A stretch of 61,112 nucleotides of DNA, the filler included, from Kipferlia bialata (taxonomy: Eukaryota), in the NCBI GenBank assembly GCA_003568945.1. It is 4 parts of 4 records of this genome, joined end to end, with 100 filler letters (N's around TTAATTAATTAA, not from the genome) between each part and the next. Parts side by side here need not be neighbours in the genome. Positions count along the whole stretch, not along the records: positions 15,314 to 30,525 come from BDIP01000728.1; 3 more parts are not named here. One strand, written 5' to 3'. The notes below the pieces were generated by a model, which saw nothing but the letters and a program-made list of their open reading frames with translations, had not been told where the DNA came from and searched no databases. This document shows positions 4,833 through 45,826 of this stretch, piece by piece (position 1 is the first letter of the stretch; each line of letters begins with the position of its first letter). Position numbers and translations under genes: made by a program.

Positions 4833-13753
<8,921 letters not shown>

Positions 13754-16488: not shown

Positions 16489-16539
<51 letters not shown>

Positions 16540-18426: not shown

Positions 18427-18723
18427 ATGACAGACTCTACAGTGCCCACATAGATTACACAGTGATAGGACCTACTTGCAGAAGAATCCATATTGTATTG
18501 AAAATCGTAAACATCATCTATATTGGTTTGTAATGGGAGCTGAGACGGCCCAGTACCCTCCTGCCTCCTCAATACCCGAAGTTATCTGAAATATATGTCC
18601 AAATGAAGAGATCGAGTGTCTGTCCCCTATCGACACCACGCCATTACACAAGTATGTTCTCGATACATACATATCGATCTCTCACACACACTGTCTGAGG
18701 TACTCGTCATGTCAATTAGTCTA

Positions 18724-18761: not shown

Positions 18762-18762
18762 C

Positions 18763-19373
18763 TCACACACACTGCCTGAGGTACTCGTCGTTGACATCTA
18801 GCAGATAGCACGTCGTCACAGACTCCTCTGACCCCTCAAAGTACTCCAGAGGGCTGGGGTGTTAGACTATATATACATATCCTACATACACACAAGCGGG
18901 TACATACATATACACATGTATGATAATGCTGGATCCTCAAAGTACTCGAGTAGAATTCACTACTCAACATATATGTATACTCCATGTATACTGATTCATG
19001 AAATGCAGCAGTATATGAATTGTGATGTAAATCTTGTATATCAATATCTACGTACCACCCCCCCAGCTCACGGTGCCAGGACACGACGAGGAGCACGTAT
19101 TCTGGAGTGAGAATCCATACATATGTATATATATGTGTGTGCCCACCTATATGCGTGTATCCCATATATTGCATATAAGTACCTCCCACTCTGCATGATG
19201 CATAGTGGCACCCATGTCCTCATCAAGGACATTCATTAGTATATATATATAGATGTATATATATATGTGTGTACATGTATATGCATACACACTGTGTATA
19301 ATTCTCCCACTCTACATGATGCGTAGTGGCACCTATGTCCGTCCACATCAAGGCTATTCATTAATTAACACAC

Positions 19374-19404
<31 letters not shown>

Positions 19405-21032
19405 ATTATGAATATGTATATACAGTATACATAGTTACCTCCCACTTTACACGAAGCGTAGTGGCACCCATGTCAGCCCTCATCACGGGGGACATATACA
19501 CATACACATATGCATATACATGTATGTATATAGCATTACTTGTAATAGTAAGCATACCTCCTAGCACACATGTGGCATAGTGACACCCATGTCCGCCCTC
19601 ATCACGGGGGATGTCATCTGTATATTATATATATATATTATATATATATATATATATGTATGTATATATATAATATAACTATTGATAGTAAGCATACCTC
19701 CTACTATACAGGTGGCGTAGTGGCACCCATGTCCGCCCTCATCACTGGGGATGTCATCTAGGACAGGGCCCACAGTGCCACTAAGGGGTGAGGGGTGTAT
19801 ATAGCTACATATATACATACATAGTGTACATATTAACAGAGAGATAGAGAGAGAGATAGAGAGAGAGTCACTAAGGGGTAAGTAGAATATATATATATAT
19901 GGATTCATATACTCCATATAATGGATATATATACCTGCATGCGTCGTATGCTGCTATGCTGTAGTCACAGACGGCCAGGGCAAGGCCATCGCCCACGGGC
20001 TGGGGTGAGACAAGACAGTAAATATACGTATTCAGTAAAACTATGTATATAAATATATATTAATGTACGTATATATACGTATATAAGTACAATTATATAT
20101 ATGTGTTAATATATACATATACATATATATATCATACTACATCATACTAATATATACCTGGTAGCATGACCCCTTGAGTCCGTCTGAACTGAGGTCTGTC
20201 CAGGTGCCTAAGGGGTGAGGGGAATATATATATATATATACACATATAAATACAATGACATTATAAATGTATATATATATGTATTGTTATTATGTACATA
20301 TATATGTCTGGTAATGTAAAACAAGTCTGAGGTCTGTCCAGGTGCCTAAGGGGTGAGGGATACATGTACACTCGCAAAAGTGTTGGAAATGCATACATAT
20401 ATAAATACAATTAGTACATATGTTCACAAACCCCGCGTGTTGTGCATGGAAACACACACATCCACACACCCACCCACACACACATATATATATACATATA
20501 TATGCATACATACTATTATATACATATACACTCACATACCCTGTGGGTGGTTGAATGTGGCATGGTATGTGTCTCAGTGTCTATACATATTTACACACAC
20601 ACACACACACATATATATATCAATACATACATGTAGTATATATCTATACATATATGTATATCTCTCTATATATCTATCTATCTATACACTCCTTAATATA
20701 TAACCACTTACCCTGTGTGCTGTTGTATGTGGCATGGTATGTGTCTTTCTCATCCCCGGCCATCCCTAGCAGATGGACGGTGCTGAGGGTGAGAATAGTA
20801 TGTAGTAATATATCCATATATAATCAATAAATATATATATACATATATATATGTCAGATGGACGGTGCTGAGGGTAAGAATATCCATATATAGTAAAGTA
20901 GAGTAGTATATTTATACCAATTAATGCATATGTCATACCCAGCACATGGACAGTGCTGAGGGTATACTACCACAGTAAAAACCGTACACCTACTGCACCC
21001 CCTCGTATGTTACCAGTGTATATATAGTAGAA

Positions 21033-21080
<48 letters not shown>

Positions 21081-21177
21081 CCTATATATAATAATAATAT
21101 ATATTATTATACCATATACTATACTATACTCTTACCCTCTCTGCACCCCCATTCCATACAGGGCGTGTCTGTAGTAG

Positions 21178-21211
<34 letters not shown>

Positions 21212-21281
21212 ATCTACTGTATACTATACTATAGCGTACCCTCTCTGCACCCCCATTCCATACAGGGTGTGTCTGTAGTAG

Positions 21282-21315
<34 letters not shown>

Positions 21316-24285
21316 ATCTACTGTATACTATACTATAGCGTACCCTCCCTGCACCCCCATCCCATACAGGGTGTGTCTGTAGTAGTCTCTCTCTCTCTCT
21401 CTCCCCATATATATGTATATATATAATAGTATGCTAGTATATATACATGTACTCTCACCCTCTCTGTACCCCCATCCCATACAGCGTGTGTCTGTAGTAA
21501 TCTCTCTCTCTCTCCCCCCCCCTATATATATGTATATATATAATAGTATGCTAGTATATACGTATGTGCTCTCACCCTCTCTGCACCCCCATTCCATACA
21601 GGGTGTGTCTGTAGTAATCATCGTGGGGTGCGTTGTCTGCAATTGGGTGGACGGGGGGGTTGGCAACACGCTGGGTCAGAATTATGTATAAAGAATATAC
21701 ATACATTGTATCATCGAATATAAATATGTATACTATAGGGGGGTTGGCAACACGCTGTGTCAGAATAATTAGATAACTATATATAGATACTTTAATATAT
21801 ATGCATCATTGGGGTCGCTGCGTGAGTGTCCAAGATATGTTACATTTACAGAAGAACTATGTGTACATATACATATACATATGTATACCATGTCTCACCT
21901 TCCATTTCCCTGTCTCTGTGTTGTAGATCCATGCCTGCAGGGGCTTCCACTTGGACACAGTGAAGGGACCTACGACCAGGAGGAACTAGAGTTAGAATAT
22001 TAAGTAAATATTACTTACTAAAACATACAGTAAATACTATGTATACAGGCAATGGTTACAAAAATGTATATACCACTACCATGTGACAAGAAGGAACTGG
22101 GGTGAGAGAGACAACTGGAGACAAATCAAGAATGTAGACGGGGACAGTCTATGGTATGCTTTACATGCTTAGAACACATATGTTACAAATTTGTGGACTT
22201 GAGTCTTCACCACAAGGCACTAGAGAGAGAGATGGAGATAGAGAGGGGGATTGAAATATGGACACTGTTCATATATATACAGTTACCAAATGTATATATG
22301 TAAACCCTCCTACCTCTGTGTCTGACACACCTATGCCCTGGGGTATATATACCTATACATACATACAATATATACACTATATATACTATACTATGTATGC
22401 ATACATAAACCCACCTCCGTGTCTGACACAGCCACCATCCCTCTGGGGTACCTGACACTGGGGGCACCGGCCTGAGGAGTGAGGATAATATATATGCTAT
22501 ATACATATACTAGATATATATAGTATAGCATATATGATATACTATTAAATAGTGTATAAGTCTCGGGTACCTGACACTGGGGGCATCGCCCTGAGGGGTG
22601 AGGTTATAATAGAATATAGTCACACATATAGTGTATATATAGTATATAGTAATCAATCGTGTATATATCTGGGGTACCTGACACTGGGGGCGTCGCCCTG
22701 AGAGGTTAGGGTACTAAGTAATATAGGCACTCACATATACTATATATATATAGTAGAGTATATATAGTATATACTAATTAATCGGGTATATGTCTGGTAC
22801 CTGACACTGGGGGCGTCGCCCTGAGGGGTGAGGGTACTAAGTAATCATATATGTATATATATATAGTATAATATATATGATATACTATTAAATAGTGTAT
22901 ATGTCAGGTACCTGACACTGGGGGCGTCGCCCTAAAGGTGAGGGTGATAGATATATTATATACACATTCATACATATATACACTTGTGTACATACCTAAA
23001 GCTCTATTCTCTCCTGTCCATTGTCCCGTTGCCATTGAGTACACATACGTACACTATTGTATGATATATGCTATCTACACACCTATAACTCTATCTTGTC
23101 ACACCACTCCCCCCTTGCCATCGAGTACACATGTAGGACAGAGAAAGCCTATAATTACTATATATTTCAAACCTAACATATACCTATATGTATTCATACT
23201 AATACCTCTAGTGTAATCCTATCACACCACTCCCCTCTTGCCATGGAGTACACGTGCAGGGCAGAACATATATATACTACACACTATAGTATATACCTCT
23301 NNNNNNNNNTGCAGGGCAGAACATATATATACTACACACTATAGTATATACCTCTAGTGATATCGTGTCTGTCCATTGTCCTGTGGCCAGTGAGTACACG
23401 TGTAGGGCAGGGGTATCAAGGCCCTCCGGCTCAGGGTTGGGCTCTTGTCTGTCCCTTGTGTTATAATAGTATATTGTAGTTAATAATAGTACATATACTA
23501 CTCTGTGTATATATGCAGGGCAGATGTAAAAACGCCCTCGGGATCCTCGGCGTATTCCTCGTTTCTGGTGTTATATATATGCATATGGGAAATTGCAAAA
23601 TTGAAATATATTTAGTATATATATAATAGTATATATATAACATACAGTAGTAATAAATTATAGTATATAACAGTATACATACCACTGTCTAAACTGGGCC
23701 AGATCCTCCTCTGCCAGCTCAGCCTCGTCAATATCAGACAGCTGAGGGTAAGAAGTATGGAATATATATACACACACACATTATATATGTATGAATAGAG
23801 AGAGGGAGGAAATCCTCTGCCAGCTCGTCAACGGCAGACAGCTAGGGTAAGGTATAAATATATATATATATATATACATTCATATATAAAAATAGACAGG
23901 AGAGAGAGACAGAGAGAGAGTATGGGTGCTTCAACGAATCATCCTCATCTTGGATAGCACTGGACTCTCTCAATCATCCATATATATACATATATATGCT
24001 TACCTCATCCTCGCAGCACTTGACGGGCCTGCCACTGGCGTACACATACACCTTGCCCCCCATACACACACCTGGGGTGACTATAGATTAATAGGTAAAT
24101 TACATCTACATATATACACTTGTACATCTATATATACAAATAATCACTTACCGCATGCCACGCCCTTGTAGGGCACCTCTATCATGGCAGACTCTAGCCT
24201 AGGGGGTGCAGACTCATCAGCCTCGTCATGCACTGGGATGAGTATACATATATACATATGTGTATATAATGTATACTAAAATATG

Positions 24286-24316
<31 letters not shown>

Positions 24317-24628
24317 TCATCAGCCTCGTCATGCACTGGGGGTGAGTATCAATATATACTAAACTTCAGATATGTGTATATAGGATATTCATATACCTAG
24401 TGACTGTTGATGCCTGGGGTATGTGTCATCTGTAGGCCTCTCTCTCTCTCTCTCTCTATCCATATATATAAATATGTGTGTGTTTGTGTATGTATACATA
24501 CTTATATACCTAGTATGACGGTAGATGCCTGGGGTATGTGTCCAGCTGTAGGCCAGCCCCCCTTGAAGCCCAGGAGCATGCAGGTGTTGGCACCAGTCTG
24601 CACACAGCTGGGGTTAGATATGTATATG

Positions 24629-24662
<34 letters not shown>

Positions 24663-24738
24663 GACATATAGACAGAGAGAGAGAGACTTAAGTGTTGGCA
24701 CCAGTCTGCACACAGCTGGGGTTAGGTGTGTATATATG

Positions 24739-24769
<31 letters not shown>

Positions 24770-27700
24770 TGGGAGAGAGAGAATGTGAAAGAGAGAGATC
24801 TATTTCGGCAGAGATACCGTAAATGTACTCGCATGAAACATATGCTCATATACAAAAACATATATAATGTATGTACGTACTCGTATGTGTGAAACGGCCG
24901 GGAAACAGTGAGCTGTCGGCGCTGAGGGTAAGGGGGAGAGAGACAGAGATAGGGGGAGAGAGGCCACTGGCAGTTACGCATATATAAGTATATCCACCAC
25001 ATACCTCTATCACCCTGCCGGCCAGTGGCAGGTAGGAGACAAGGTCTGGGTCGGCCATCAGACGGGACCTCACACCGTTGATGGCAACTGGGGTAAGGAT
25101 AGATAGATATATACTTATACTTTATCCATATACAACATTCCACATACTAACATATACTAATAATACATGTATACACACCTGAAACCTGTGGGTCCATATA
25201 TATACAAATATACATATATGTGTATGAGTGTACACATGTACAATCAATTTTCATGTATAGATACAAACCTGCAACCTCTGGGTCCACAGTGTTCCTCTCC
25301 CTGGTCCCTGGGGGTCAGACGGCATGATATAGTATACATACATACATATATACATACATATATCATCATGATTGAATGAATATACACACACATGTCTAGA
25401 CAGAGTGTGCCTCTCCCTGGTCCCTGGGGGTCAGACTACATGACTCTGTATACACACATACATACATCATCATGACTTTTAGGACCCACACACAAATATA
25501 CGTAAAGAATAGTCCCAATGTACTAGTGTACAATGCAGTATATCAATATACAATATACCTAGGAGTGACGGTATCATACATACTATTATATATATATTTA
25601 TATAAATATACTATTAAATATATATTTGTATATATGCATCAATATATATATATATCAACAATGTATACAATATACCTAGGAGTGAGGGTATCATGCCAGC
25701 CTCGGCCATGTCCCTCAGACCACAGTGCTCACCAGACCTGTATGTTATAATATATAGTTATAATATAGTATATGAACAATAGTATACTATATATCATAAT
25801 ATATGATAATATGGTAATTATATACAATAAGTATATACAATAATAGTATAATAAGTATATACATGTAAGTATATACAATAATAGTATAATTAGTATATAC
25901 ATGTAAGTATATACAATAATAGTATAATTATAATAATACTACATTGTATATGTGTTATACGAGGTGCTCTCCAGACCTGAATGTCAGACATAAACAATAT
26001 AGATTCCATATATATTACGAATGTATATAATATGTATTACACCAAATGGATAATTTATGTATCAGTATAAACTAATGGTCAGACCGAGTTGCTCAGACCT
26101 GTAATGTTAGAAACACATATATACATAATGGGCCATTATACTAACACAAGACCTACAGTATCCACGTGTCTGTAAGTGTGTGAAATTGTTTACTGATTAG
26201 TATCTCGCTGCATGTACCTGATCTTACTGTACTCGAGCAGGGCGTAGATGGCGTTGATCCCCACATATTGCACGTGGGATACGGCCTCTAGAACAGGAAG
26301 AGTGGCCTTGACTGCGAGATAGTCAGCCTCTGGCACCTCTCTCTCTCCCTCTCTCTCCCCCTCACTAAGGGAGAGCATAATCTTGATGACCTTGTGCACT
26401 AGCTGGCTCACAATCACATCCCTATGGTTATATACATATACACACATATATAGATATATATATACACAATATTTATACTATATATACAATACATACTATA
26501 TATATACTATATATAGTAGTTGGNNNNNNNNNNNNNNNNNNNNNNNNNNNNNNNNNNNNNNCTATATATAGTAGTTGGTGACCTTGTGCACAAGTTGGCT
26601 CACAATCACATCCCTAGGGTGAGACTGTGTGTGTATAGAGTGTATGTTATTATGTAGACAGTGTAGACAGAGAGAGAGAGAGAGAGAGAGAGGGTAGATG
26701 GGCAAGCTGGCTCACAATCACACACTATAGATATAGTATATACAATCCACACTATATACTATATACTATATACTATACACACTCCATATAATATATTAAT
26801 ATTCGCTATACTGATGCATGCGACTGTTTAGCAGCACGGTCAGACACCAGTTAACACTACTAACTAAATATACACATATACTATATACATATATCGTATC
26901 CTATCGTATCGTATCGTATCTAATTCACATACCACCGTGGAGCGGCACGGTCTGACTCCAGTATGGCCTGGAAGAGTGGGGTGCACTGTATGTGGGTGGG
27001 TGGACTCATCTACTATTAATCTATATATATATACATATATATATATATATAATATATATATATTCTAAAATATGTATATTAATCCATATATACTATAATA
27101 TATATATATATATACCGGTATTCGGTTGTGTGGACTCATCTACTAAATGTATAAACCATAATATATATATATATACCTGTATGTTGATAGGTGCGGTGAG
27201 TGATGGGTTCTTCTCAAGTGCCTCGACCACTGTACATGCAAGGCTGATGGACCCATTCACTAGGGTGAGTATAGATAGATACATACACATATATATGTAT
27301 ATTAATATGAATATATAGGGTGACTGTTTTTTCAATTATTTTTTTTAATTCTCTTTCCTAGGGTTGATGGACTCATCTATTAATCTACTATACTATACTA
27401 TACTATACTATACTATATACATATGTATATACCTATGTCTAGATCGGTCGAGCCTGAGACCAATGGAGCAAGACGAGAGTACAGCCCTGCCTGGGGGATG
27501 AGTGTGTATAAATATATATATATATATATATACATATCAGTCTGGAACATGAGTGTTCACACATACGTATATATTCATTTATATATATATTCATCAAGAG
27601 TACAGCTGGGGCATGAGAGTGTGTATGTACATAAGTATATATATATGTGTATATATATATATATGTGTATACATATGTACATAAGTATATATATATGTAT

Positions 27701-29398
27701 GTGTCTGGTACATGAGTATGTATATTTGTATATATACGTATATATACATATACATACATATGTCTATGTATTTATATATCTAAGCATGTACACATATATA
27801 TACATATACATATGTATACATATGTATATGAGCATTGGACGCTGTGTAGCATTGGGGCTCCTATATTCTATACATATACATAGTATGGTAAAACTACATA
27901 TACACTATGGGGGCTTATGTATACTATGATGGTCAATATACATACCTCTGTGAGATGTGGCACTGCATTGTGGTTCCTGAACGCTGTTCATATATATACA
28001 TATACTATAATGGTATGCAAGTACTACAATGGTCCGTATATACAACATATTAACTATATATACTATATATATACATATATACCTCTATGAGCAGTGGTAC
28101 TGCATAGTGCTCATTCACAGATATACTTCTATCTATTTTTGTACAATAATGGTCTCTAAATACTACAATGGTGGGTAAATATATACAATATATATAGAAT
28201 ATATCTACATAAATATCTACCTCTATGAGCAGTGGTATACTACAATGGTAAAGGTAAATATATACAATATCTATACAATATATACTATATGCATGTATAT
28301 ATATGTACCTCTATATACTATATACATGTATATATATACCTCTATGAGCAGTGGTGCTACACTGTTGTTCCTCCACGCTACGGAACTGAGCAGGGAGAGG
28401 GTAGCCCTGAGGTGAGATAACAAATGTATATACATATATAGTGGAAATAGAGATATACATAAATGCATGTGTCATAGTGTCACGTGTTGAATCATAAACA
28501 TATACTAGTATTTATATGGTCACTATATGTAATTAGTATACATGTACATGCATACTTGAGCGTGTCTGCTCTGTCCATACATGTCAGCATATAGGCCTAC
28601 ATATAGAGAGCTTCACAATATATCATATACCCACTGCTTATACGCATTAGAACCTACCTGCATGTGTCTGCCCTGTCCATATATGTCAGTACAACATATA
28701 AATACAGTATATATACAATATATATATATTATATGTATACAATATATATACAATATATATAAAAACTATATATATATACAATATATACACACATACATGT
28801 ATATCGATACCTGCATGTGTCTGCCCTGTCCATACATGTCACACATAAACAATAAGTATGCATATATATAATGTATATATAACTATATATATCAATATAT
28901 AATATATATTAATATTGAACCTACCTGCATGTGTCTGCCCTGTCCATACATGTCAGCAGCAGGTCAATTAGCTCAGGGTCGCTGAAAGGTAAGGGAACAC
29001 ACATGCACATATATATACATACATTATATACCAGATATATATGTATATATACACATATCAAATCAGCAGGTCAATTAGCTCAGGGTCGCTGGATGTAAGA
29101 TATAGTAGTATAAATACATACAAGCCACACTTGTGTACATATATACATACACATACATATATATATAAATATACAAGAACCAGGGCATAACAGTTCAGGG
29201 TCTCTGGAAGGGAAAGGGAAAACTGATACACGATATGTACTTTGTATTGATATACTATATATAGTATATTGAACATACCATAATACCACACATACCATAT
29301 ATATATTGTTTATATATGACTTGACTTCACACACATATATACATATATATATATAAATAATATATACCTCCATGTCCGCGGGAGGAAACTCTGTACGG

Positions 29399-29435
<37 letters not shown>

Positions 29436-29840
29436 ATAGGCATATATACACATATATATATATATACCTCCAAATAGGTGCTTGGCTGAGCATGGCAGAC
29501 AGTGCCTGTATGGCATCTACTGGGGTGTGGGCAGAGGCAGAGGTGCCAGATAGGATGGCCTGGTAATATTAGAAGGCATAAATATATATACACACACACA
29601 CACACACATATATATATAATAATATGTATCTATATATATATATAGAGAGTATATGTGGACAGAGGCAGATGTGCCAGATAGGATGGCCTGGTTGTCAGTA
29701 TATATATATACTATATATACAATAGTATGATACACACATATATATACATATACATATATGTATAGTATGTGGGCAGAGGCAGAGGTACCAGATAGGATGG
29801 CCTGGGGTTATTAATGACATGTATTCACACATATATATAT

Positions 29841-29874
<34 letters not shown>

Positions 29875-30238
29875 TGTGTGTGTGTGTGTCCTCAGTGGTA
29901 GAGGTGCCAGATAGGAGGGCCTGGGGGCTGTATATACATATGCATATATATATATATATCAGTGTGTATACATGTGAAGAGAGAGAGTACCTTGCACTCA
30001 GCCAGAGATATACACATATAGTATACATACACATAGTGTATATATACAGTATAGAGAGAGAGGGAGAGGGGGAGAGAGGGAGTAGCTTGCACTCAGCCAG
30101 AGGGATGTCTGGAGATACATACATATGGTAAATACACTATATATATACATATATATATATATATGATTATGTACATACAGTAGAGCAGTACCTTACACTC
30201 AGCCAGAGGGATGACTGGACCGTTGGGGCGGTTCATGC
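18763..30238 (-). CDS. Large multi-exon protein with an N-terminal ARM/HEAT-like helical region and a C-terminal Kelch-type beta-propeller; 5' end possibly incomplete
   Basis: Hand-joined exons: DPELIDLLLTCMDRADTCRATLSLLSSVAWRNNSVAPLLIEAGLYSRLAPLVSG (ARM-like), then GVCMGGKVYVY, LHVYSLATGQW, MVAVSDTEFLLVVG, QAWIYNTETGKWKRVANPP, TVHLLG, IAAYDACSG, ending CYLLDVNDEYLRQCV*. Confidence 0.7.
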
Positions 30239-30392
30239 CTGAGAGAGAGAGAGAGAGGGAGAGAGAGACCGGGGCGGTTCATGGCTGTACTAAGCTATCA
30301 AGATATATAAGTACCCACAATGTATATAAGTACGTATAAGGTGTATAAGTACAAATAGGTATATATGTACGCACGAGTGACTACGTGGAGAG

Positions 30393-30625: not shown

Positions 30626-30680
<55 letters not shown>

Positions 30681-30703
30681 AGTACTAATATACTAATACC
30701 CAG

Positions 30704-30927
30704 GCCACCCAGCTCAAGACCATCCCTGAGCTGATGGCATCCCTGGAGACAGGGTACAAGGAGGCTGTTAAGGTATATAGAGTATATACATTCTATATAT
30801 ATATATATATATATCATATAATCAGTATATATAGTATAGTATGTACTGTACTCACTATCAGGCCGAGAAGACGTCTGCCAAGAAGGAGGCACCCAGGAGG
30901 GGCAAGGGAAAGCCAAGGAGGCGGTAG
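30704..30927 (+). CDS. Last two exons of an unidentified gene
   Basis: ATQLKTIPELMASLETGYKEAVK | AEKTSAKKEAPRRGKGKPRRR*, with canonical splice sites and a basic NLS-like tail. Confidence 0.6.
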
Positions 30928-31109
30928 AGGAGAGATATTGTTCAATAGATTCACATTTGTAAGATTAATTGGTGATTGATGACACATACAACTAGCCCTA
31001 AACCACAGTCATGTGCGTGTCTCATGGCTTACATGCATACAGTGCCTTACACTGTAACATCGCAAATTCTGAGAAACCCTCAATTGTATACCAGTACCCT
31101 GTTGAGTGA

Positions 31110-33034
31110 TAGATGCCCTCACTGTATACAGATGACCTCTCAGTGCACAAGGCCGCCTGGTTCGCACCTCCTCTCTTCTTGAAGCTGTCTGTAGGTATTA
31201 TTGGGAACGTCCTACACCCAGCGGTGACTGGGTTTTCGTAGTGGTGTCTGCCCACAGCGACCAAAACAACAGAACATCCGTCTAGGTATGAGAAAAATAC
31301 ATAAGTTTACAATACTACTATACTATATAGTAGCCTGCCTTGCGTAAGATATCGTGTATGTGAGGTACTCTCTATAATAATATGTATCAATAGGGGAGAA
31401 CACACCAATATATTGCATATACATACACTTGTATATGAATATTTGTATGTATACAATTACATACTGTATATGGCAGACTGGGCAGGCGATCTCTCTCTCT
31501 CTGTACGGATACATATATGTATATATATATATATATCTCCCTTTGCAAGCATTATTCACATGAATCTATTCATTTAGACAGGTGTACCTCCTTAACGTGT
31601 CGAGCCGGGCTGGCATATGTATATATATATAATAATAGTATATTATATATGTATTATTATAATAGTATACTCATTCATACAGGTGTACCTCCGTAACGTG
31701 TCAAGCCGGGCTGACCTTATAGCCCTCTAAGGGCCTCCTGGCCGTGTGCAGCCGCCTCATAGGCTCCGTCCTCGGACCTGTATATCCATTAATACAGGTG
31801 TACCTCCTTAACGTGTCGAGCCGGGCTCTGGGAACGTACAGCCACAGCAGCATCCCTAAGGTGAGCACATATAAATATATGTAATAGTATATATATATGA
31901 GTCATATGATATATATATATATAATAGTATATATATATGAGTCATATGATATATATATATATAATATAAATATATGAGTCATATCATATATATATATAAT
32001 GTAGTAGTATATATTGGTGCCACCAATTTGGTGGGTAGTGCATCACATGTCAAGCCGGGCTGACCTTATAGCAAATATGTATATATGTATATGTATTATA
32101 TACACACTATATATATATAATAATTACGATATATATAGCATATATTGACTCAATATAATATTGAGTTCTAGGTGTTGCCTGGATACATGCCTCTTATTAT
32201 ACGTATATAGTATATATATACAGACATGCATAGTGAGTACATTACAGACACATACCAGAAGTACAGTGGTCAAATATATATATAATATTATATATATAAT
32301 ATTATTATTTTGTTTAGGTGTAGGGTACTAGGTCTCCGAACCATCGACAATGTCGTACTCACATATATCTATATCTATATATACATATAGTGTGCGTATG
32401 TATATTACAAAATATATGAGTCCATGCATATACTATATACTAGCTGGCCTATATACATATACAGTATGTATGTAGTAAATACTATGTACATGTATAATAC
32501 TAAATATACTAGCTAGACTAGCACCCTTCTTGTGTATAGGGAGTATGTACACTTACCCCACCCACCCCCCTATCTCATTCTTACACACTCTTTTCACCCA
32601 CAGACGATTACTATCAGCATGATACACTCCCCTGTTGCCCTCACAAGACTCACTCAACCTCTCAACCTCAATCTTATCAACAACAGTTATCCCACCATAT
32701 CATTGCTTTCATCCCTGATATAATAGTCATAGTAGTTCTAATTAGCCAGGAATAGTGCCAAACGAGGTCCACTTGTGTGATGCGCCATCGATCTCAACGA
32801 TAAGGGAGGCGGCTGGTGACACCATGTCAAAGGTAGTGCACTTCTCATTGTAGGCTGCGGCTGCTCCTTCACGCACAAGAGGAGGTCAGGTGAGACTCTC
32901 TATTAGAGAGAGAGGGAGAGAGAGAGAGAGAGAGACTGGGCCCTTCACGTATGTATAGTATATATGTATAGTATATATGTATAGTATATATATACAATAT
33001 ACGGACAAGATGAGGTCAGGTGAGACTCTCTATT

Positions 33035-33066
<32 letters not shown>

Positions 33067-34350
33067 GACCCTTCACGTATATATAGTATATATATAGTAT
33101 ATATATATAATATACGGACAAGATGAGGTCAGCGAGGAGGCTCAGGGGATATATATGTATGACCGCAGCCTCAAGCGCTAGGGCAACTGATGGTGATGCC
33201 ATGTCAAAGGTGCATCTATCTATCTATCTATCTATCTATATCTCTCTATATATCTATATCTATATATACACTTTAGTATACAAATAGTATATAATAAGTG
33301 CTGATACCTAGAACGGCCGGCTGATGGTGACGCCATGTCAAATGTGGTGCATCTACCAAGCTTACTACCTGGGACCAAGGGCGGAGACCGTGAGGTCAGA
33401 GATGATTATACATATGTATATATATGTATATATATAGAAAGAGAGAGAGAGAGAGAGTCTGGACCCTGACGGAAATGATGAGGTCAGAGAAGAATATATA
33501 TGTTTATGTATATTATGTATATATGTTTATATATATATACATATATTCATATATACTCGATGAGGTCAGTGAAGAGGGGGCCCAGGCCATTGTAAACCAT
33601 ATGTGTACGTGTAGATTCATGAATAGGATATATATATGTATGGATATATAGGTGTGTGTGCGTGTATGTATAGTACTATACACCTTGGAATAAGGAGGTT
33701 CTCTTTACTTCCAATATGTAGGCTCATCTATAGGTATATACATATGTATACGTTTTGTATATATCAGCACTACTTTTGTATTAGCTTTGTATATGTATAT
33801 ATATAGTTATATAACATATATATATCACATTCATGTATTAGTGTATTTACCGGTTGCGTCACTCACCCCAGACCCGTAAGAGTCACACGGAGTGCCATCC
33901 ATATATGCATATACACACATATAGTTATATATACATATACGGTATATGTAACATATACCTCAGCCACACACACACAGACTCGAACACAGTACCACCCAAT
34001 CACTATAGAGCATGGTGTGCCTCTAGTAATTTAGCAGAGTATCTCTTCGCAGGGTATCATCCAGTCACTATAGAGTAATTTAGCCGATTAACAGGGTATC
34101 TATATCCAACATCAGGCCTCAGCTTCGCTACCTGCGTCCTGAATGTCATCACGGCGGGCCTGTACATAGCTCCCAATGAGGCACATGTCCACTACCGCCC
34201 AGAGCCCAAAGCCTCCAAGCGTGACTACGTAGATGGATCCGTCTCCTATGTCCTTATAATAGATGTCTGTTGTGTCACAACTTGTGAGCTCCGTGTATTG
34301 GTAACATTCTCAGTCAGTGCCATTATGGTTACTCAATGCCAGTGATCTAC
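31110..34350 (+). pseudogene. Possible degenerate gene (scattered exon-like blocks)
   Basis: GC-rich blocks with splice signals (e.g. 31797-31860 VYLLNVSSRALGTYSHSSIPK; 32750-32889; 34094-34345). An in-frame stop occurs and no clean model could be joined. Confidence 0.3.
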
Positions 34351-34757: not shown

Positions 34758-35209
34758 TTAAGTGTCCAGCTGGCAGAGGAGAGCCGTTCCCTGCTTCGTG
34801 AAGAAGGAGGGGTCCTGGAGTGAGATATGTGGATGTATAGAATACTATTATCTATTACTGTCCTAGCTATCTGTATGTGCATATGAATGTGTACTTTCCG
34901 TATATTAATGCGTACGTGAGAGAGACGGGAGAGAGGGAGACATAGAGAGAGAGAGGGAGTACCTGTGCCGTCGGGATGTCCACTGGCATGATGTGGTTGG
35001 TGGATCTACCCGTGGTAGACAGAACACCAGCCCTGGAGGTAAGAATAGAGCATACATCATGTGTGAACATACAAATCCCTAAGTATACATACTGCGCCAC
35101 TCTCCCTGAAGTATCTTCATACTCATACAAACTGATATGTATATATGTATATCCATGCCATCCTACCTGAAGCTAGTCTTGTACAGTGGTGCCTCGTAGT
35201 CTGATACAC

Positions 35210-35257
<48 letters not shown>

Positions 35258-36080
35258 TGTATATATTACATATGCATATAACATCATATATACATGTGTC
35301 TCTCACCTAAAGCTTGTCTTGTAGAGTGGTGCCTCGTAGTCTGAGTCGTCTCTCTCCCAGTTGGGCACTGGGGTGAGGGAGGATATATACAATATATATA
35401 TATACATATAGTAACAAATCATTACTAGACCATATTAGTAGTATGAGTCGTCTCTCTCCCAGTTGGGCACTGGGGTTAGCATGGATACAGTGACATTCCT
35501 AGTATATACAGTATACTTAAAATATAGTGGTGCAATACAATACAATATCCCTATCCCAGTTGGGGACTGGGGTTAGTATCTTACATAGTATGTGGAGAGC
35601 ACTCGTTATCTACAGCAGAATACAAGTCTATGCATACACCCATACCTGGCAAGAAGTGCACGATGGGCAGACGTGGGAACAGCATGCGCTGTCTGGCCTG
35701 AACGAGCTGCATCCTAGACATTAGAAGCTATCGCGTAATTAGACAATGAAACATAGTTAACGTGTAGAATAAGGGGTATCATCGGATTAAGAGACCTCTT
35801 CGCCTGATAAGTCATTGGAATAAGTATATCGCGTAGAGTAGTGCCAATACCTGTCTGGATCGAAGTATGCCCCGTCCAGGTACAGACCCACTCTCATATA
35901 TTGAATATATACATACACACACACACATATATAAATATAAAAATATCCCAACATATATACGAGATTCGTTACCTGTCTGGATCGAAGTATGCCCCATCCA
36001 GGTACAGACCGTGGATCAGCACACCCTCAGACACGCACTCGTCGGGGGTGAGGTCCTCGGGCTCGGTCTAGTATTAGAGG

Positions 36081-36114
<34 letters not shown>

Positions 36115-36180
36115 CTCAGACACACACTCATCAGGTGTAAGGTCCTCGGGTTCGGTCTAAGGGTTAGAGGTATATATATG

Positions 36181-36212
<32 letters not shown>

Positions 36213-36265
36213 CTCAGACACACACTCATCGGGGTTCGGTCTAAGGGTTAGAGGTATATTTATAC

Positions 36266-36306
<41 letters not shown>

Positions 36307-36659
36307 CTCAGTCACACACTCATCGGGTGTAAGGTCCTCGGGTTCGGTCTAGGGGTTAGACACACAGAGCAATGAATGGTGGTGTATATAGTGTGCATAT
36401 ACCTTGTGGGTGAACATGAATCTGAATGCCAGGACATCGATGGGTACAAGGACCAAGTAAATTAAATTAATACTTATACACATACTATATACATATCCCT
36501 TACTGCATATAATATTACTTATATATATATAGACAAAGATATTTACCTTATGGGTGAACATGAATCTGAATGCCAGGACATCGATGGGTACAGAGTGGGA
36601 CCTGGCATAGGTCTGGAGGACACCCGTGATGAAACCCTGGCTATTAGGGGTGTAGAGGG

Positions 36660-36691
<32 letters not shown>

Positions 36692-36886
36692 GCCTGGGGG
36701 AAAAAGAACCCGCTCAGCCAGTATGACTCCGGTCTGCCCTTCTGCAGCCAGGAGCGCATGAACTCAACCCTGGGGTTAGTATATGTATGTATATAAATAT
36801 ATATATAGATACAGAGAGGGCATGTACCTCAGGATGAGGTCTGCGAACCAGCTGGACAGAGACAGGTATATATACATACATAATAG

Positions 36887-36923
<37 letters not shown>

Positions 36924-36991
36924 GGCATGTACCTCAGGATGAGGTCTGCGAACCAGCTGGACAGTGACACGTACATATACATACATAATAG

Positions 36992-37036
<45 letters not shown>

Positions 37037-38009
37037 TGTACCTCAGGATGAGGTCTGCGAACCAGCTGGACAGGGGCTTGAGAGAGGGGTAGGCAGCGGC
37101 AGTCCACATGTCAGGGACCTGGGGTGAGTATAAACATATCAATACAATATATATATATATATACAAGTACTATTGTATATATGTATATCAATGTATATGG
37201 GTAGTCCACATGTCAGGGACCTGGAGTGAGCATAGTGATAAATAAAATAGGGATAGGGTAGTGATATATGATACAGACGAAAACTACTGTGATATTTGGA
37301 GTGACTAATCTATGTATAAAAGGCAGTCTCCTACCTGCCCGATGAAGCATGCCCTGAACACAGACTCCAGCTGGGCACTCATGACAACTAGACCCTGGAC
37401 GTAAGTGGTATATGACTATATACTACTATTTATAGGTATTTATGATATATATATACATATATTAATATATACTTATACATATATGAAGCTTGGGCACTCA
37501 TGACAACTAGACCCTGGGGGTAAGCGGTACATATGTGCGTAGTAATGAACACTAATGAATGTAACATTGAGGACCAACCTTGATACCGGATCTGAGGTCT
37601 GCCAGGGATGACTTGAGGACAGAGAAGCATACATTAAGTATTATATTATATATATATATATATAACATGTATATTACATGTATCTATGTATACCTTGATA
37701 CCGGATCTGAGGTCTGCCAGGGAAGACTTGAGGACAGAGAGGAGGTTGTTGAACCTCTGGACCTGAAATAAGGGTCTAGGTGGAGAGAGAGAGAGAGAGA
37801 GAGGAGGTTGTTGAACCTCTGGACCTGGAGGGTTAGAGAGGGATACACACACACACATATATATATATATATAATAGTATATATGTAATAGTACATATAT
37901 ACCTCCTGCTTCAGTACGACAGCCAGAGAGTGGATCAGTCCAGACTCCAGAGGCTCAAAGAGACCCTCGAGGGCAGTGTCCATGTCAAGCTGGTGTAAAA
38001 AGGGTGTAG

Positions 38010-38053
<44 letters not shown>

Positions 38054-39055
38054 TACACATAGATATATACTATACAAAATAGTCAGAAAGAGAGAGTATA
38101 AACATACCTGCTCGGGCAGTCTCTGCAGCAGGTCGGCAGCTATCCTATCTACAATGGTGTCCTCAGTGTCTGCAGTGGACACAGTCAGGATGCCATAGTC
38201 GCCATCCTCTCTCTCCTGGTGTAAAAAGGGGGGTATGGAGAGAGAGTATAGATGTATGTGTATATACCTCCTCGGGGACTTGTCTCTTCGCCTTAGCAGC
38301 CTGCTTCTCTGCCACAGCTGCTGCCTCTCCCTCTCCCTCTCCCTCTGCCTCTGTCTCTGTCTCTGCCTCAGTGGTGAGGGGCTCTGGCTCGACATAGGCC
38401 TGGAGGGTAAGAACATTAGTGTAATGTGGATGCATATATATGAGGGTGGAGGACAATTGTACAGGACTATATATACCTCGATGGCCGTTGGCTGGATGTT
38501 GAGGACATCTCTGATGACACGGGCACCCTCTCTCTCCCTGGGATCAGAGGAGTAAGTATACATAGACACATATAGTATATACGTATATAGGGTATATACC
38601 TGTACACGAGTGATGAGTTGTCGTGCATGCCAAACACCTCAGGCTCCTCGGACATGGGAAGGGTCTCCACATAGGTCCTGAGGGGTTAGATATATATATA
38701 TATCTGTATCTATATATATATAGAGAGAGAGAGAAAGAGAGAGAGAGATGGGGAGGGTCTCCACATAGGTCCTAGAGGGGTTAGATTAGTAACTATACAT
38801 AGAGAGAGAGAGAGAGATCGATACCTCATGTCAGCCAGGCTGCTTGTGCCATCTGCACAGACATAGTAGATGCCACTATCAGACAGGGGGCAGTCATCAA
38901 CGTCGATGGCCCTGGGGGGTGAGGTATACATAGATAGATATATATATATATATATTCATATACATAGAGAGAGAGAGGGGGGGAACGACAGAGACAAGGT
39001 AGTCATCAACGTCGATGGCCCTGGGGGGTGAGATATGAATATATATAGAGAGAGA

Positions 39056-39095
<40 letters not shown>

Positions 39096-39531
39096 AAGGC
39101 AGTCATCAACGTCAATGGCCCTGGGGGTGAGTGGTGTTGTTATGTACATTCATTGATATATAAGCCCAGGAGGATAGGAACATGTATATCCATATATATA
39201 TAGTTCATCTACATTAAGTAGAATACCTCGAGTCGAAGTACTTGGCCAGCACCGTGTTGAGTAGACGCCTGTCCCAGTCGTCAGTCACTCTGGGGGGTAA
39301 GAGTACACACACATATTTATACTATACACACATATATATATATATACATGATATAGTACATATGTCTGTCCCAGTCGTCAGTCACTCTAGGGGTTAGCCA
39401 TACTGATAACTATATAGAGGTCTAATACACTATTGACCACGTACCTTCCACCGTAGTTGACCTCTGCAATCACATAGCGCAGGGCCTCCCAGGGGATCTG
39501 CTCCTGAAGTGTGAATGAAGGGGGTAGAGTT

Positions 39532-39566
<35 letters not shown>

Positions 39567-42305
39567 GATAGAGAGAGACAATATACCTGCTCCTCTAGGA
39601 ACATTCTCAGTGTCCTCTGTGATACTTCAAAGTCACTGTCGGTGAACTCGTAGGGGATGTTAAACCCATGGGGGCCAAACTTACGCCTCTCCTGACGGTT
39701 AAATTGCAATTCATTCTGTCCAAGTATCGTAAAAATGTCAATACTTACCTGCACAATGGCGTGGAAGAATGCCAGGCTGAAGAGATGTTAGAATATAAAA
39801 TATATATTTTAGTATATTATATAATACCTATATATATATATTAGTATATATATATAATACCTGCACAATTGCGTGGAAGAACGCCAGGCTGAAGAGGAGT
39901 CTCATGGTTAAGTCAATAATTACTGTCCCATTATCGTAAAAATGTCAATAATTACTGTCCCATTATCGTAAAAATGTCAATAATTCTTACCTGCACAATG
40001 GCGTGGAAGAATGCCAGGCTGAAGAGGAGTCTCTTCCAGGGCTCTGGCTTAGAACATCCAGCGAAGTCGGAGTCGTGGAACTCGGTGAATGTCCTTGTGG
40101 TAAGATACAGCGTGAGACAATACACGACATCTACTCTCCATGAGAGAGAGAGAGAGAGAGACTCACCTTGTGAGGTTGGCCTTGAGTCCTCTGGGGGGCT
40201 CGGTGGTCATCTTGACACTGTTCTGGGGTTAGAACAGGTATATGTAAGTGTATACATATATAGACAGAGAGAGAGAGAGATATCAGTCATTTTGACACTA
40301 TTCTAGGGTAAGTAAGAGTATTGTAGAGGGGGAGAGTACTCGATGTGATCATCGCCCTTCGTCAAACATATATATATATATATATATGATATATATAGGG
40401 GATATCAACGCAGCAGTATATATCAAATAATAATGAAGCAACACAGTATATGTAAGGAAGAGAGAGAGAGAGACATGCATGAGGTGTACCTGCAGGACCG
40501 AGATTGGGAATGCCTTGGAGGGCATGGAGGATAGCCACAGCCTGAAGGTAAGGAGATACACATACATACAAAGACATATATATACTACACATATACTATA
40601 TATACTATACAATGCCTTGGAGGGCATGGAGGAGAGCCACAGCCTGGGGGGTTAGTCTATATACGAATACAAACAGAAGGATATAGCATATCTGGTTACC
40701 TGAAGTTCTTGTGTGGGGGTATGGTCAGGTTGGGGTCTGCCTCTGCCTTCCCAGATGCCAGGGCCTCGACATGCCTCTCAAGAGAAGACATCCATGACGC
40801 TGCAAGGTGACAGTTCTTATGTAAGAGGGAAATAGGGGGAGAGAGAGAGAGAGAGAGAGATAGACCGTTACCTGGAGGAAGAGCCAGTTTCCGTCTCTGG
40901 TGGCTCTCTGCATGAGCTTGTAGGCCACAGGACCCTGGCCTAGGGGTGAGGCTAGACCATACATTGTACATTACACACGCACACACACAATCTCTTTGTT
41001 CATTATGCACATACGCTGTCCCAGTGACACCACGTGCATCTACACACAAATCTCTCTCTCAATATATATTGGTATAAAAAAATATACAAATATATATTAC
41101 TATACATACCCTGTCACAGTAACATGTGCATCTACACATAGATCTCTCTCTCTCTCTATCTATACATATACATATATATATAATACTATACATACCCTGT
41201 CCCAGTGACACCATGTGCAGCTGTGTGTCTGGCTGCTGGTTGCAGAAGGCCTGAGGTAAGTATATACATTCAAACAAGTATATGTAGCTCTATCTATTTA
41301 TATATATATGTATCATACACGTGCACATACCTGCAGCTGTGACAGGGGGTCTACACTAGCACTAATTCAGCAGTATAGATAGATACAGGATTGTATAATT
41401 CATATACTATGGATCTATACATACATACATGAAAACTTATAGATTATGCATACCTGCAGCTGTGACAGGGGGTCTGCCCCAGTGCTGAGGATGAAGACTC
41501 TCTCTCTCTCTCAATATATATATATATATATATATATATTATGCACATATATCATACCTGTAACTGCGACAGGGGGTCTGCTCCAGTGCTGAGGATGAAG
41601 ATGAGGGGGCTGGAGGGGCTGGAGTCCTTAAGTTAGCAGTAGGAGAGAGAGAGAGAAAGATAGATAGAGAGAGAGAGAGAGAGGAAGATGAGGGGGCTGG
41701 AGGGGCTGGAGTCCTAGGGTGAGGGAAGAGAGAGAGAGAGAGAGATGAAGGGAGCGCCAGGTTTCTGTACAAAACCATATGTAAAATGAGAGAGAGAGAG
41801 AGAGAGCGTACCTTGAATGCGTCGTCCAGGACCAGGGGTGGGGGCTCGGTGAACCTTCTGTCGAGCTCAGACTCAATGTAGGTGGGGAGGGAGCTAGAAG
41901 TGAGTGGTATTCATATACAGTATAGAGAGTGGGGCCGGTATGTGGCATATATTGTTTAATGCAGTGAATGAGATGAAGTTGACAAGACAAAGCAGTGTAT
42001 TACTATCTACATGATATACATCGGATACGTACCCTGCCAGTCTATGGGGTGCCAGTATCCTCACTAGCATGACACACTGGAAGGGGGACAGGGGGGTGGG
42101 GGGCGGGGTGCCAACAGGGTCATCTGGGGTGAGAGGCAAAACATGTATATATATCCACTATACACCAATGTACATATATAGTATACATACCTCCCTCCAC
42201 CCACTGCGTCCACTCCCTCATGTGTGTGGCCATGTGTACATAGGCATCATACAGAGAGGGCACGTCAAGGACCTAGGGTAAGACACACACACACACACAT
42301 ATATG

Positions 42306-42338
<33 letters not shown>

Positions 42339-44752: not shown

Positions 44753-44794
<42 letters not shown>

Positions 44795-45082
44795 CGTACC
44801 TTGTGAGGAGAGGGTCCAGGGCTGGGTTGATGTGCTCACCCACATTCTCAACAAGCACAGGGAAGCCTAAGTGTGTAAGTACAGGGTTGAATACATATAT
44901 ACACATATGTAGAAACCACCATTCTCCACAAGCACAGGGAAGCCTAGGAGGTAAGAATAGTTTATAGTATATACACCTAATGAATATCTGTGGCATCCAC
45001 ATACCTAGTCTGATTGCGTTCTCGAGTGCCCTGAGGAAGGTGGGCTGGGATGGACGGAGGACAACCTAGGGTGAGGTATATC

Positions 45083-45118
<36 letters not shown>

Positions 45119-45826
45119 ATATATATATATAGAGAGAGAGGGATTAAACAGTCCCCGTACCAGGTTGTTAGCTGCCTCTCCGTTCTTGATCCACTTGATG
45201 ACTTGTAGACACAAAGCAAGACACTCTAACTATTGTATCCATCAATGCATATTAATATACTCACCAGGTTGTTAGCGGCCTCTCTGTTCTTGATCCACTT
45301 GATGACACAAAGACCCAATGCAACTATAGATATATATTATACTATAAAATGTAAGTTGAAATATCAATATGAAACATTAACTCACCAGGTTGTTTGCTGC
45401 CTCTCTGTTCTTGATCCACTTGATGGCCTGGGCCTGGGGGTCGATGATCAGGGGCCATCTGGGGTCAGGGTACATACTTATATATGAATATATATAACTG
45501 TAGATACACATAGGGAGAGTGAGAGAGAGTACCCATACCTGTTAGACTGTGTGCACACAATGGCGTTGTCAATGGACACACTGTCAGCGGGGAGACCATC
45601 AAGCTGGAACTGCCTAAGGGTTAGATCAATAAAAAGTGTAGAGAGAGAGAGAGAGAGAGAGAGACACTGTCAGCAGGGAGGCCATCAAGCTGGAACTGTC
45701 TGAAGGTGTTAGAGAGATTGAAAGAGAGAGTAAGGGTATTACATGTATCATGTATTACTAATTCACACATCATACCTGACTGTGACGTCATCCACCAGGG
45801 TGTTCTTGAGACTGAACTCATCGGAC
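34758..45826 (-). CDS. DNAH6: Axonemal inner-arm dynein heavy chain (DNAH6-like), AAA5 to C-terminus; 5' part missing
   Basis: RWPLIIDPQAQAIKWIKN, GLEEQLL, RGSLLYF, PLIFILSTGADP, SLGQGQGP, GNWLFLQNCHLA, FRLWLSS, ERRKFGPHGFNIPYEF, NYGGRVTDDWDRR, AYPSLKPLSSW, YWLSGFFFPQGFITGVLQ, RAGVLSTTGRSTN, ending GTALLCQLDT*. The paralog assignment is from memory of the family. Confidence 0.93.
36637..36693 (-). other. GC-AG intron (57 nt) in the dynein gene
   Basis: FFPQ|GCAAGT...CTAATAGCCAG|GFITG restores the conserved GFFFPQGF motif. Confidence 0.8.

What the first reader, a model, noticed from the sequence alone, without database searches (positions are those of the whole stretch)
18900..30300. Pervasive tandem duplication of exon edges builds the introns
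Seen: almost every exon of the ARM+Kelch gene has 1-5 copies of its own edge in the adjacent intron. Downstream copies carry the exon end plus GT donor (e.g. ~21135, 21236, 21340, 21452 vs real ~21572; ~19185, 19303, 19437, 19556 vs real ~19696). Upstream copies carry the acceptor plus exon start (~22565, 22670, 22797, 22905 vs real ~22440). The same pattern fills the dynein and contig-4 genes and occurs more sparsely in CHD (7830, 9851, 10253, 10346, 10654). Inference: local duplication straddling exon boundaries is a major driver of intron length here. I do not recognise it as a described genome-wide architecture.
Basis: seen in the sequence. Interest (0 to 1): 0.82.

Follow-up and report, generated by a model that had tools for sequence, protein, structure and literature searches.

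The report
Introns built from stacked exon-edge copies
In the free-living protist Kipferlia, about half of the intron DNA in this window is made of stacked partial copies of the neighbouring exon edges, which were spliced out wherever RNA could be checked, and in most genes they differ from the working exons so strongly at silent positions that they are likely leftovers of other working versions (alleles) of the gene laid down by recombination.

Summary
Real. The window is Kipferlia bialata. In 7 gene models, 79 of 155 introns hold 161 partial exon-edge copies ("echoes"), spaced about 109 bp apart. They fill 52% of intron DNA; intron length = 103 + 118 per echo (r = 0.93). DNA-run contigs carry several echoes letter for letter, and a spliced contig uses the outermost sites in 5 of 5 echo-bearing introns checked. 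Echoes never copy a whole exon; donor echoes precede acceptor echoes in 16 of 16 mixed introns.

Plain duplication and decay does not fit. Echo-versus-exon differences are codon-filtered (0-fold/4-fold 0.27; dynein 0.10), below the ~0.5 floor for a dead copy (0 of 900 simulations reached 0.25), and near-identical echoes mostly have unrelated intron flanks. In the focal ARM+Kelch gene alone the ratio (0.43) does not break the floor.

Best reading (inferred): edge duplications that survive as unpairable half-exons and are written or refreshed from other working alleles. No allele data were available. The scan saw similar echoes in a sea urchin gene (e1-9861148), whose bias stayed within the floor. 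No paper describing this architecture was found.

The parts
18763..30236 (-). KIPB_003693 (ARM-like N-terminus, Kelch C-terminus), 26 exons, 25 introns, 46 echoes in 18 introns
19102..19697 (-). 596-bp intron with four donor echoes (19558-19619, 19439-19492, 19304-19350, 19183-19219); removed whole in the spliced contig
20783..21575 (-). 793-bp intron with four donor echoes (21459-21502, 21344-21387, 21240-21283, 21136-21179) followed by two acceptor echoes (20934-20955, 20855-20867); removed whole in the spliced contig
20208..20711 (-). intron with one donor echo (20540-20574) and one acceptor echo (20327-20345)
21738..21754 (-). acceptor echo of exon 21576-21670
   Evidence: DNA contig 21587-21854
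22314..22345 (-). donor echo of exon 22415-22471
22472..23351 (-). 880-bp intron: three diverged donor echoes (23206-23264, 23083-23141, 22996-23044) then four acceptor echoes (22907-22931, 22796-22820, 22668-22697, 22561-22590)
   Evidence: not checked against reads
23504..26851 (-). single and paired echoes: 23504-23545, 23813-23841, 24313-24335, 24397-24438, 24692-24715, 25179-25196, 25401-25423, 25559-25577, 25964-25976, 26575-26613, 26705-26722, 26822-26851
27946..28841 (-). two three-copy donor-echo arrays (27946-27985, 28083-28104, 28221-28247; 28556-28589, 28658-28689, 28811-28841)
29053..30113 (-). acceptor echoes 29053-29088, 29176-29203, 29654-29687, 29768-29801, 29886-29920; donor echoes 29991-30007, 30086-30113
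18682..18708 (-). echo of the coding end plus stop codon in the 3' UTR of KIPB_003693
15756..18426 (+). convergent Kelch gene, 6 exons; 7 echoes in 4 of 5 introns; joints 15879|16165, 17352|17747, 17839|17995 skip them
34758..45826 (-). dynein heavy chain C-terminal part, 46 exons (my model, 39% identical over 1,156 aa to a homologue); 36 echoes in 24 of 45 introns; 0-fold/4-fold ratio 0.10
46040..52818 (+). KIPB_003696, 20 exons; 29 echoes in 11 of 19 introns; ratio 0.22; stop-codon echo at about 52873
48886..49923 (+). 1,038-bp intron: four donor echoes with one shared junction and a mosaic of third-position variants, then three acceptor echoes
53559..60942 (-). gene of unknown family, 17 exons (my model, open frame); 34 echoes in 14 of 16 introns; ratio 0.15; three stop-codon echoes at about 53410-53532
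4833..13753 (+). CHD-like helicase gene (name from motifs, recalled), 32 exons; only 7 echoes in 6 of 31 introns
30626..33700 (+). unmodelled gene fragment with the same 88-216-bp spaced repeats; left out of all counts

Best explanation
The introns are lengthened by units of about 110 bp, each a partial exon edge (median 32 bp) with its splice site plus an intron-like spacer (median 76 bp), and the exon part of each unit is likely written or repeatedly refreshed by recombination with other working alleles rather than simply decaying after a local duplication. Shown: the units, their size and polarity, their share of intron length, skipping by splicing in 5 introns, the codon-filtered differences and the unrelated flanks. 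Inferred, step 1 (birth): a break inside an exon is repaired by one end copying through the exon edge into the intron of a homologous template and rejoining the other end by microhomology or filler, which leaves the old edge behind as an echo; only exons give enough homology between alleles, so units are anchored on coding edges. Inferred, step 2 (turnover): misaligned crossover or gene conversion between echoes and live exons of other alleles expands arrays and makes mosaics. Inferred, step 3 (survival): only half-exons are tolerated, because an echo has no partner site on its other side, so a spliceosome that pairs sites across the exon, or takes the first donor, ignores it; whole-exon copies and acceptor-then-donor orders would be purged.
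For: Differences at 0-fold vs 4-fold sites: 114/1415 vs 114/376, ratio 0.27; array bootstrap stays under 0.5 in at least 99.6% of resamples for 4 trimming rules, also base-stratified without CpG. Simulated dead copies beside a fully constrained exon, run through the same alignment, give 0.54-0.59 and never 0.25 or less in 900 runs; observed for the same proximal echoes 0.25. The ratio follows the gene: dynein 0.10, contig-4 genes 0.15 and 0.22. Holds in single-echo arrays (0.25). Variants private to one echo are also filtered (0.27; first 0.14, middle 0.23, last 0.34). Echoes at least 95% identical in the exon part have intron flanks like unrelated controls (5 of 48 above the 95th percentile; mean 0.17/0.14 against 0.61 for 20% simulated change). 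Echo splice signals differ from the live ones (4.2 of 10 acceptor bases) yet score as well. Four-gamete conflicts in 5 of the 6 arrays with two or more informative sites. No echo covers over 75% of its exon; 16 of 16 mixed introns have donors first; 0 of 91 donor echoes have a branch+AG motif within 110 nt upstream. No comparable repeats in 4,053 bp of intergenic DNA or 2,326 bp of long exons. (GA)4+ lies just before 23 of 90 donor echoes and in 0 of 76 echo-free introns; (CT)4+ lies just after 26 of 70 acceptor echoes. Context: metamonads lack Ku-dependent end joining and all fornicates examined lost Rad51A and keep two Dmc1 copies (PMC8516963, section 8); the species is reported diploid by k-mers (PMC5874029).
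Against: In the focal gene the ratio is 0.43 (0.28-0.70) and in both Kelch genes together 0.47, compatible with plain decay. Dropping the most synonymous echo of each array raises the private-variant ratio to 0.53 (p = 0.07 against 1; a test biased against the reading). The model needs about 20% synonymous divergence between alleles; no allele of this species was in hand and none was found in metagenomes. Some units clearly are recent tandem copies: 27 of 96 spacer pairs within arrays are homologous, 32 of 66 neighbouring echoes share a truncation point, and real-versus-echo flanks are on average slightly more alike than controls (31 of 160 above the 95th percentile). Fast microsatellite turnover could erase flank similarity by itself, and poly-C length shifts inflate the splice-score test. 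The narrow unit size is unexplained. The strongest ratios come from two gene models of my own (dynein is backed by homology, the contig-4 minus gene only by its open frame); the two deposited models together give 0.35 (0.23-0.51).
Confidence: 0.55

Rival explanations
1. Plain tandem duplication in cis (slippage, flap realignment or unequal sister exchange) followed by neutral decay, with survival of half-exon copies only; the silent excess comes from the live exon being protected and mutating faster than intron DNA.
For: Head-to-tail units found by Tandem Repeats Finder (periods 101-137); homologous spacers and shared junctions in young arrays; 11 of 161 echoes have indels and 6 of 1,115 echo codons are stops; Kelch genes sit at 0.47; identity falls with distance (0.91, 0.90, 0.87, 0.88).
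Against: Needs exons to mutate about 6-9 times faster than adjacent intron DNA to reach 0.15-0.10, while the intron flanks are the more diverged part; middle echoes carry filtered private variants (8/447 vs 9/115, p = 0.003 against 1); mosaic arrays.
Confidence: 0.22
2. Echoes are under direct selection to stay coding-compatible, either as spare exon ends that replace the live one when an array collapses or converts, or as parts of rare transcripts.
For: Codon-filtered differences, retained GT (77 of 91) and AG (64 of 70), intact signal strength; non-synonymous changes slightly more conservative than random (p = 0.03).
Against: No splice route can put a half-exon in frame without the TA-rich spacer; the spliced contig matches the live exons with 0 differences; collapse fast enough to select on echoes would also erase the 20-30% silent divergence (inference).
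Confidence: 0.08
3. Echoes are copied from paralogues or from the second subgenome of a hybrid, not from population alleles.
For: Some Kelch-gene echoes are 65-75% identical over 59-64 bp with no indel (17401, 17617, 23206), more like paralogues than alleles.
Against: Arrays hold up to five different variants, more than two subgenomes give; most echoes are over 85% identical (124 of 161), closer than dynein paralogues are expected to be (recalled).
Confidence: 0.1
4. Assembly artefact: a short-read assembler stitched the two haplotypes of a diploid in tandem through microsatellites, so echoes are the other allele.
For: Short-read assembly of a reported diploid; microsatellites at many junctions; N gaps inside some arrays; the silent bias is what alleles show; no long reads seen.
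Against: Separately assembled contigs of DNA run X1 match 16673-18715, 18774-19364, 20693-21027 and 21587-21854 with 0 differences, joining live exons to echoes, at depths 355-382 like the flank (327); three to five distinct copies cannot come from two haplotypes. X1 may be the source sample, so this tests the assembler, not the culture.
Confidence: 0.05

Closest known systems
Human F7 intron 7 37-bp VNTR spanning the exon 7-intron 7 boundary (Borensztajn et al. 2006, PMC1557585; abstract read)
   Same: Tandem copies of an exon end plus donor lie downstream of the real donor, are potentially functional, and the most upstream one is used.
   Different: One locus, short homogeneous repeat, donors only. 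Here half of all introns, both donors and acceptors and stop codons, 110-bp heterogeneous units, codon-filtered differences.
Intron gain by tandem genomic duplication (Yenerall and Zhou 2012, PMC3443670, passages read; PMC4974935 and PMC3265369 seen as search listings only)
   Same: A local duplication of coding sequence ends up inside an intron without changing the protein.
   Different: There an AGGT-containing exon segment creates a new intron; here existing introns grow, the original sites stay in use and no new intron is made.
Concerted evolution of tandem arrays by unequal crossover and gene conversion; one-sided invasion / aborted gap repair with end joining (recalled; one search gave listings only)
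   Same: Mosaic copies, array expansion, short duplications with filler at the junction.
   Different: The homogenised part is only the coding edge, the partner is inferred to be a working allele, and the product is a standing genome architecture, not a rare repair scar.
Earlier scan note e1-9861148 (sea urchin gene with decaying exon-junction copies)
   Same: Many dead tandem copies of exon-intron junctions with a silent bias.
   Different: That bias (43 of 107) was judged to fit protection of the live exon alone; here 172 of 308 unique changes are silent (35 of 45 in dynein), beyond that model.

Membership tests
Boundary-spanning minisatellite (F7 IVS7 type) | Repeat unit includes the exon end and donor; pseudo-sites lie inside the intron | tested here: met
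   91 donor echoes, 77 with GT
Boundary-spanning minisatellite (F7 IVS7 type) | Most upstream donor is used | tested here: met
   4 of 4 donor-echo introns with a listed joint, one contig
Boundary-spanning minisatellite (F7 IVS7 type) | Units homogeneous along their whole length | tested here: not met
   exon part 91% alike, flank mostly unrelated; 27 of 96 spacer pairs homologous
Intron gain by tandem genomic duplication | Duplicated exonic AGGT supplies both new splice sites, creating a new intron | tested here: not met
   echoes abut existing boundaries and are spliced out with the old intron
Tandem exon duplication / alternative exons | Copy has both acceptor and donor | tested here: not met
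   no echo covers over 75% of its exon; 0 of 91 donor echoes have an upstream branch+AG motif; 0 of 16 acceptor-before-donor orders
Neutral duplicate decaying beside a constrained exon | 0-fold/4-fold difference ratio of about 0.5 or more | tested here: not met
   0.25-0.27 overall, 0.15 in non-Kelch genes; met only in the Kelch genes, 0.47
Concerted evolution with working alleles | Recombinant (four-gamete) patterns among copies | tested here: met
   5 of 6 informative arrays; homoplasy not excluded
Concerted evolution with working alleles | Echo variants segregate in live exons of the population | not testable with these tools
   no second isolate found
Retro-copies of mRNA | Copies join exon to exon without the intron | tested here: not met
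   3 weak 16-mer matches, none a true junction copy
Exon definition | Mutating one site causes exon skipping rather than retention | not testable with these tools
   only inferred from use of outer sites over an inner pair of normal length (median 94 vs 83 bp)

The most novel reading that the evidence does not exclude
Kipferlia builds much of its intron DNA by a recombination ratchet: repair from the homologous chromosome installs another allele's exon edge and pushes the previous working edge into the intron, so each intron is a stacked archive of past alleles. One assembly would then hold tens of thousands of population samples, recording about 20% silent diversity and inter-allele recombination in a fornicate that lacks Rad51A and Ku, and would require exon-level splice-site pairing in a short-intron protist.
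Probability: 0.35. Interest if true: 0.92.

Novelty: new variant of a known kind. Interest (0 to 1): 0.8.

Why it matters
It is a concrete, countable mechanism of intron growth that is neither transposon insertion nor microsatellite expansion. If the window's relation holds, the species' mean intron of about 186 bp (my estimate from Table 1 of PMC5874029) implies about 0.7 echo per intron, near 90,000 in the genome (extrapolation). Each echo-bearing intron is a natural duplicated-splice-site experiment: inner sites of normal strength and spacing are ignored, in a group where pairing across the intron is thought to dominate (PMC2397502, passages). If echoes are captured alleles, they give direct evidence of recombination and high diversity in a free-living relative of Giardia, and a readout of what Dmc1-only, Ku-less repair does to a genome. 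Practically, echoes mislead gene finders: my unguided predictor called many as micro-exons.

Tried and rejected
No whole genome is held, so all counts come from 7 gene models in 4 contigs; the fragment at 30626-33700 and a partial gene at the end of contig 1 were not modelled. Reads were laid only on 15400-22330; the rest of the focal gene, dynein and contig 4 are unchecked against reads. No RNA holder is on record; X2 is a guessed RNA run, accepted because it shows GT-AG joints that the DNA run lacks. The bin 21200-21431 had no DNA cover (repeats skipped; a hole proves nothing), and no variant letters were listed (contigs drop variants, so this says nothing on heterozygosity). The dynein exon found no deposited protein; a homologue was used instead. 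Metagenome scan with P0001 found no relative. Rejected as causes of the silent bias: CpG decay and base composition (stratified ratio 0.19-0.36; directions GC>AT 76, AT>GC 57), alignment trimming, mRNA retro-copying. Live acceptors beside echoes are not significantly weaker (p = 0.14). Literature: ten searches found no description; the genome paper has 0 hits for 'duplicat' and 'tandem' (parts 1-2 of 6 read). The library lacks most subscription journals; supplements of PMC8516963, which list this species' end-joining genes, were not opened.
Full report
Setting. The window joins four contigs of about 15.2 kb with N spacers. Two exons retrieve deposited Kipferlia bialata proteins at 100% identity: KIPB_003693 (645 aa) and KIPB_003696 (480 aa). 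They map exactly onto 26 and 20 exons. I built five more models with open frames and GT/GC-AG introns; the dynein model aligns over 1,156 residues with a homologue that Pfam calls dynein heavy chain. In all: 7 models, 155 introns. No whole genome was available.

Observation. Exon-only local alignment finds a flanking-exon copy in 72 of 155 introns at a null rate of 0.1%. Of 85 hits to the upstream exon 63 end exactly at its 3' end, and of 59 hits to the downstream exon 45 begin exactly at its 5' end; none comes within 14 nt of the far end. A splice-anchored search (null about 0.3%) gives 161 echoes, 91 donor-side and 70 acceptor-side, in 79 introns. Units are spaced 109 bp (10th-90th percentile 87-141), made of a 32-bp exon part and a 76-bp spacer. 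Echo-free introns have a median of 83 bp; length = 103 + 118 per echo, r = 0.93; echo arrays take 18,322 of 34,927 intron bases. Density varies: 18 of 25 introns in the focal gene, 24 of 45 in dynein, 14 of 16 and 11 of 19 in contig 4, but 6 of 31 and 2 of 14 in GC-rich contig 1. Three of seven stop codons have echoes too; 4,053 bp of intergenic DNA and 2,326 bp of long exons have no such repeats. Other eukaryotes' dynein loci had 0 echoes in 45 putative introns (weak control).

Not an assembly artefact, as far as tested. On 15400-22330, contigs of DNA run X1 carry live exons and echoes together with no differences and at depths like the flank.

Splicing. One spliced contig of run X2 gives eight canonical joints; five cross detected echoes and all five use the outermost sites, including 19101|19698 and 20782|21576. 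The inner sites are not weak: 77 of 91 keep GT, 64 of 70 keep AG, their signal scores equal the live sites', and the innermost pair encloses a normal-sized intron (median 94 bp). The layout prevents false exons: donors precede acceptors in 16 of 16 mixed introns and 0 of 91 donor echoes have a branch+AG motif upstream. I infer pairing across the exon or first-donor scanning, as shown for human F7 (PMC1557585, abstract), in a group where pairing across introns is thought usual (PMC2397502, passages). Removal of wrong products by decay is not excluded.

The unexpected result. A dead copy changes at all sites, the live exon at silent sites, so differences at 0-fold sites should be at least about half as common as at 4-fold sites. 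Observed: 114/1415 against 114/376, ratio 0.27. It survives bootstrap by array, four trimming rules, removal of splice-adjacent bases, base stratification and CpG removal. Simulated dead copies passed through the same alignment give 0.54-0.59, minimum 0.29 in 900 runs, against 0.25 observed. By gene: dynein 0.10 (0-0.24), contig-4 minus gene 0.15, KIPB_003696 0.22, but the focal gene 0.43 (0.28-0.70) and both Kelch genes 0.47, which do not break the floor; without dynein 0.31; deposited models only 0.35 (0.23-0.51). Variants private to one echo are filtered too, most in the nearest echo (0.14) and least in the farthest (0.34); dropping the most silent echo per array gives 0.53. Five of six informative arrays show four-gamete conflicts. 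Second, echoes at least 95% identical in the exon part mostly have intron flanks no closer to the live flank than unrelated flanks (5 of 48 above the control's 95th percentile), although echoes overall show some flank homology and young arrays share spacers and junctions.

Mechanism. Differences filtered on both sides mean both versions spent most of their separate history as working sequence. The simplest source is other alleles: about 20% silent divergence with little decay since (dynein 4-fold 0.22, 0-fold 0.02). I propose birth by one-ended repair from a homologous template with end joining, turnover by misaligned crossover or conversion, and survival of half-exons only. The data cannot separate direct capture from the homologue from refresh in cis followed by ordinary allelic conversion of the live exon. 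The junctions carry a strand-symmetric mark: read outward from the truncated exon copy, (CT)n follows in both classes; (GA)4+ on the sense strand occurs before 23 of 90 donor echoes and in none of 76 echo-free introns. This may be repair filler or a splicing-driven filter; unresolved. Metamonads lack Ku and fornicates lack Rad51A, keeping two Dmc1 copies (PMC8516963, section 8 and passages); that Dmc1 tolerates mismatches and favours the homologue is recalled, not tested. Nothing here shows the predicted allele diversity; no second isolate was found.

Comparison and novelty. Single boundary-spanning repeats (F7) and intron gain by duplication (PMC3443670, passages) are known; membership fails on homogeneity and on creation of new introns. 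Ten searches found no account of this architecture, and the genome paper does not mention it. The scan's own notes hold nothing for this genome and one similar case in a sea urchin gene, which gave me the F7 lead; its explanation, tested on my data, fits only the Kelch genes.

Verdict. Observation confirmed; the length claim is supported within the window; plain tandem duplication is incomplete. New variant of known processes at an unusual scale, with a testable allele-archive reading. Interest 0.8.

Noticed in passing
window 36637-36693 (-) and 11289-11363 (+): Two GC-AG introns needed to keep the dynein and CHD-like frames open.
   Followed up: partly
window 18328-18853: One X2 contig runs from the plus-strand Kelch gene into the minus-strand ARM+Kelch gene, suggesting overlapping 3' ends of convergent transcripts; a contig does not show a single transcript.
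   Followed up: no
window 30269-30284 (-): Short copy of the start codon and first codons upstream of the ATG of KIPB_003693, seen by eye; under the score threshold.
   Followed up: partly
window about 56235-56260: A donor-echo junction contains an inverted copy of the common pyrimidine/branch-side motif, like templated filler.
   Followed up: partly
window 26986-27432 (-): Two neighbouring introns share a 12-bp motif three times, and the acceptor at 26985 resembles the end of the previous exon, as if an echo had become a splice site.
   Followed up: no
window 17353-17746 (+) and 22996-23264 (-): Kelch-gene echoes only 65-77% identical, several without indels; possibly from paralogues; a 217-bp two-unit block was duplicated at 17353-17680.
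   Followed up: partly
window 57229-57720 (-): About nine copies of the acceptor region, most with only 5-19 exon bases; only three pass my threshold, so counts are lower bounds.
   Followed up: partly
window 1-15213 versus 15314-61112: GC-rich contig 1 has 9 echoes in 45 introns, the other contigs 152 in 110: strong regional or gene-level variation.
   Followed up: no
all modelled introns: Branch point sits directly against the acceptor (YTNAC-pyrimidines-AG in 78 of 155 introns), as recalled for other metamonads.
   Followed up: partly
window 25815-25930, 39912-39985, 8240-8288: Purely intronic tandem repeats exist but have short periods (38, 32, 9 bp).
   Followed up: no
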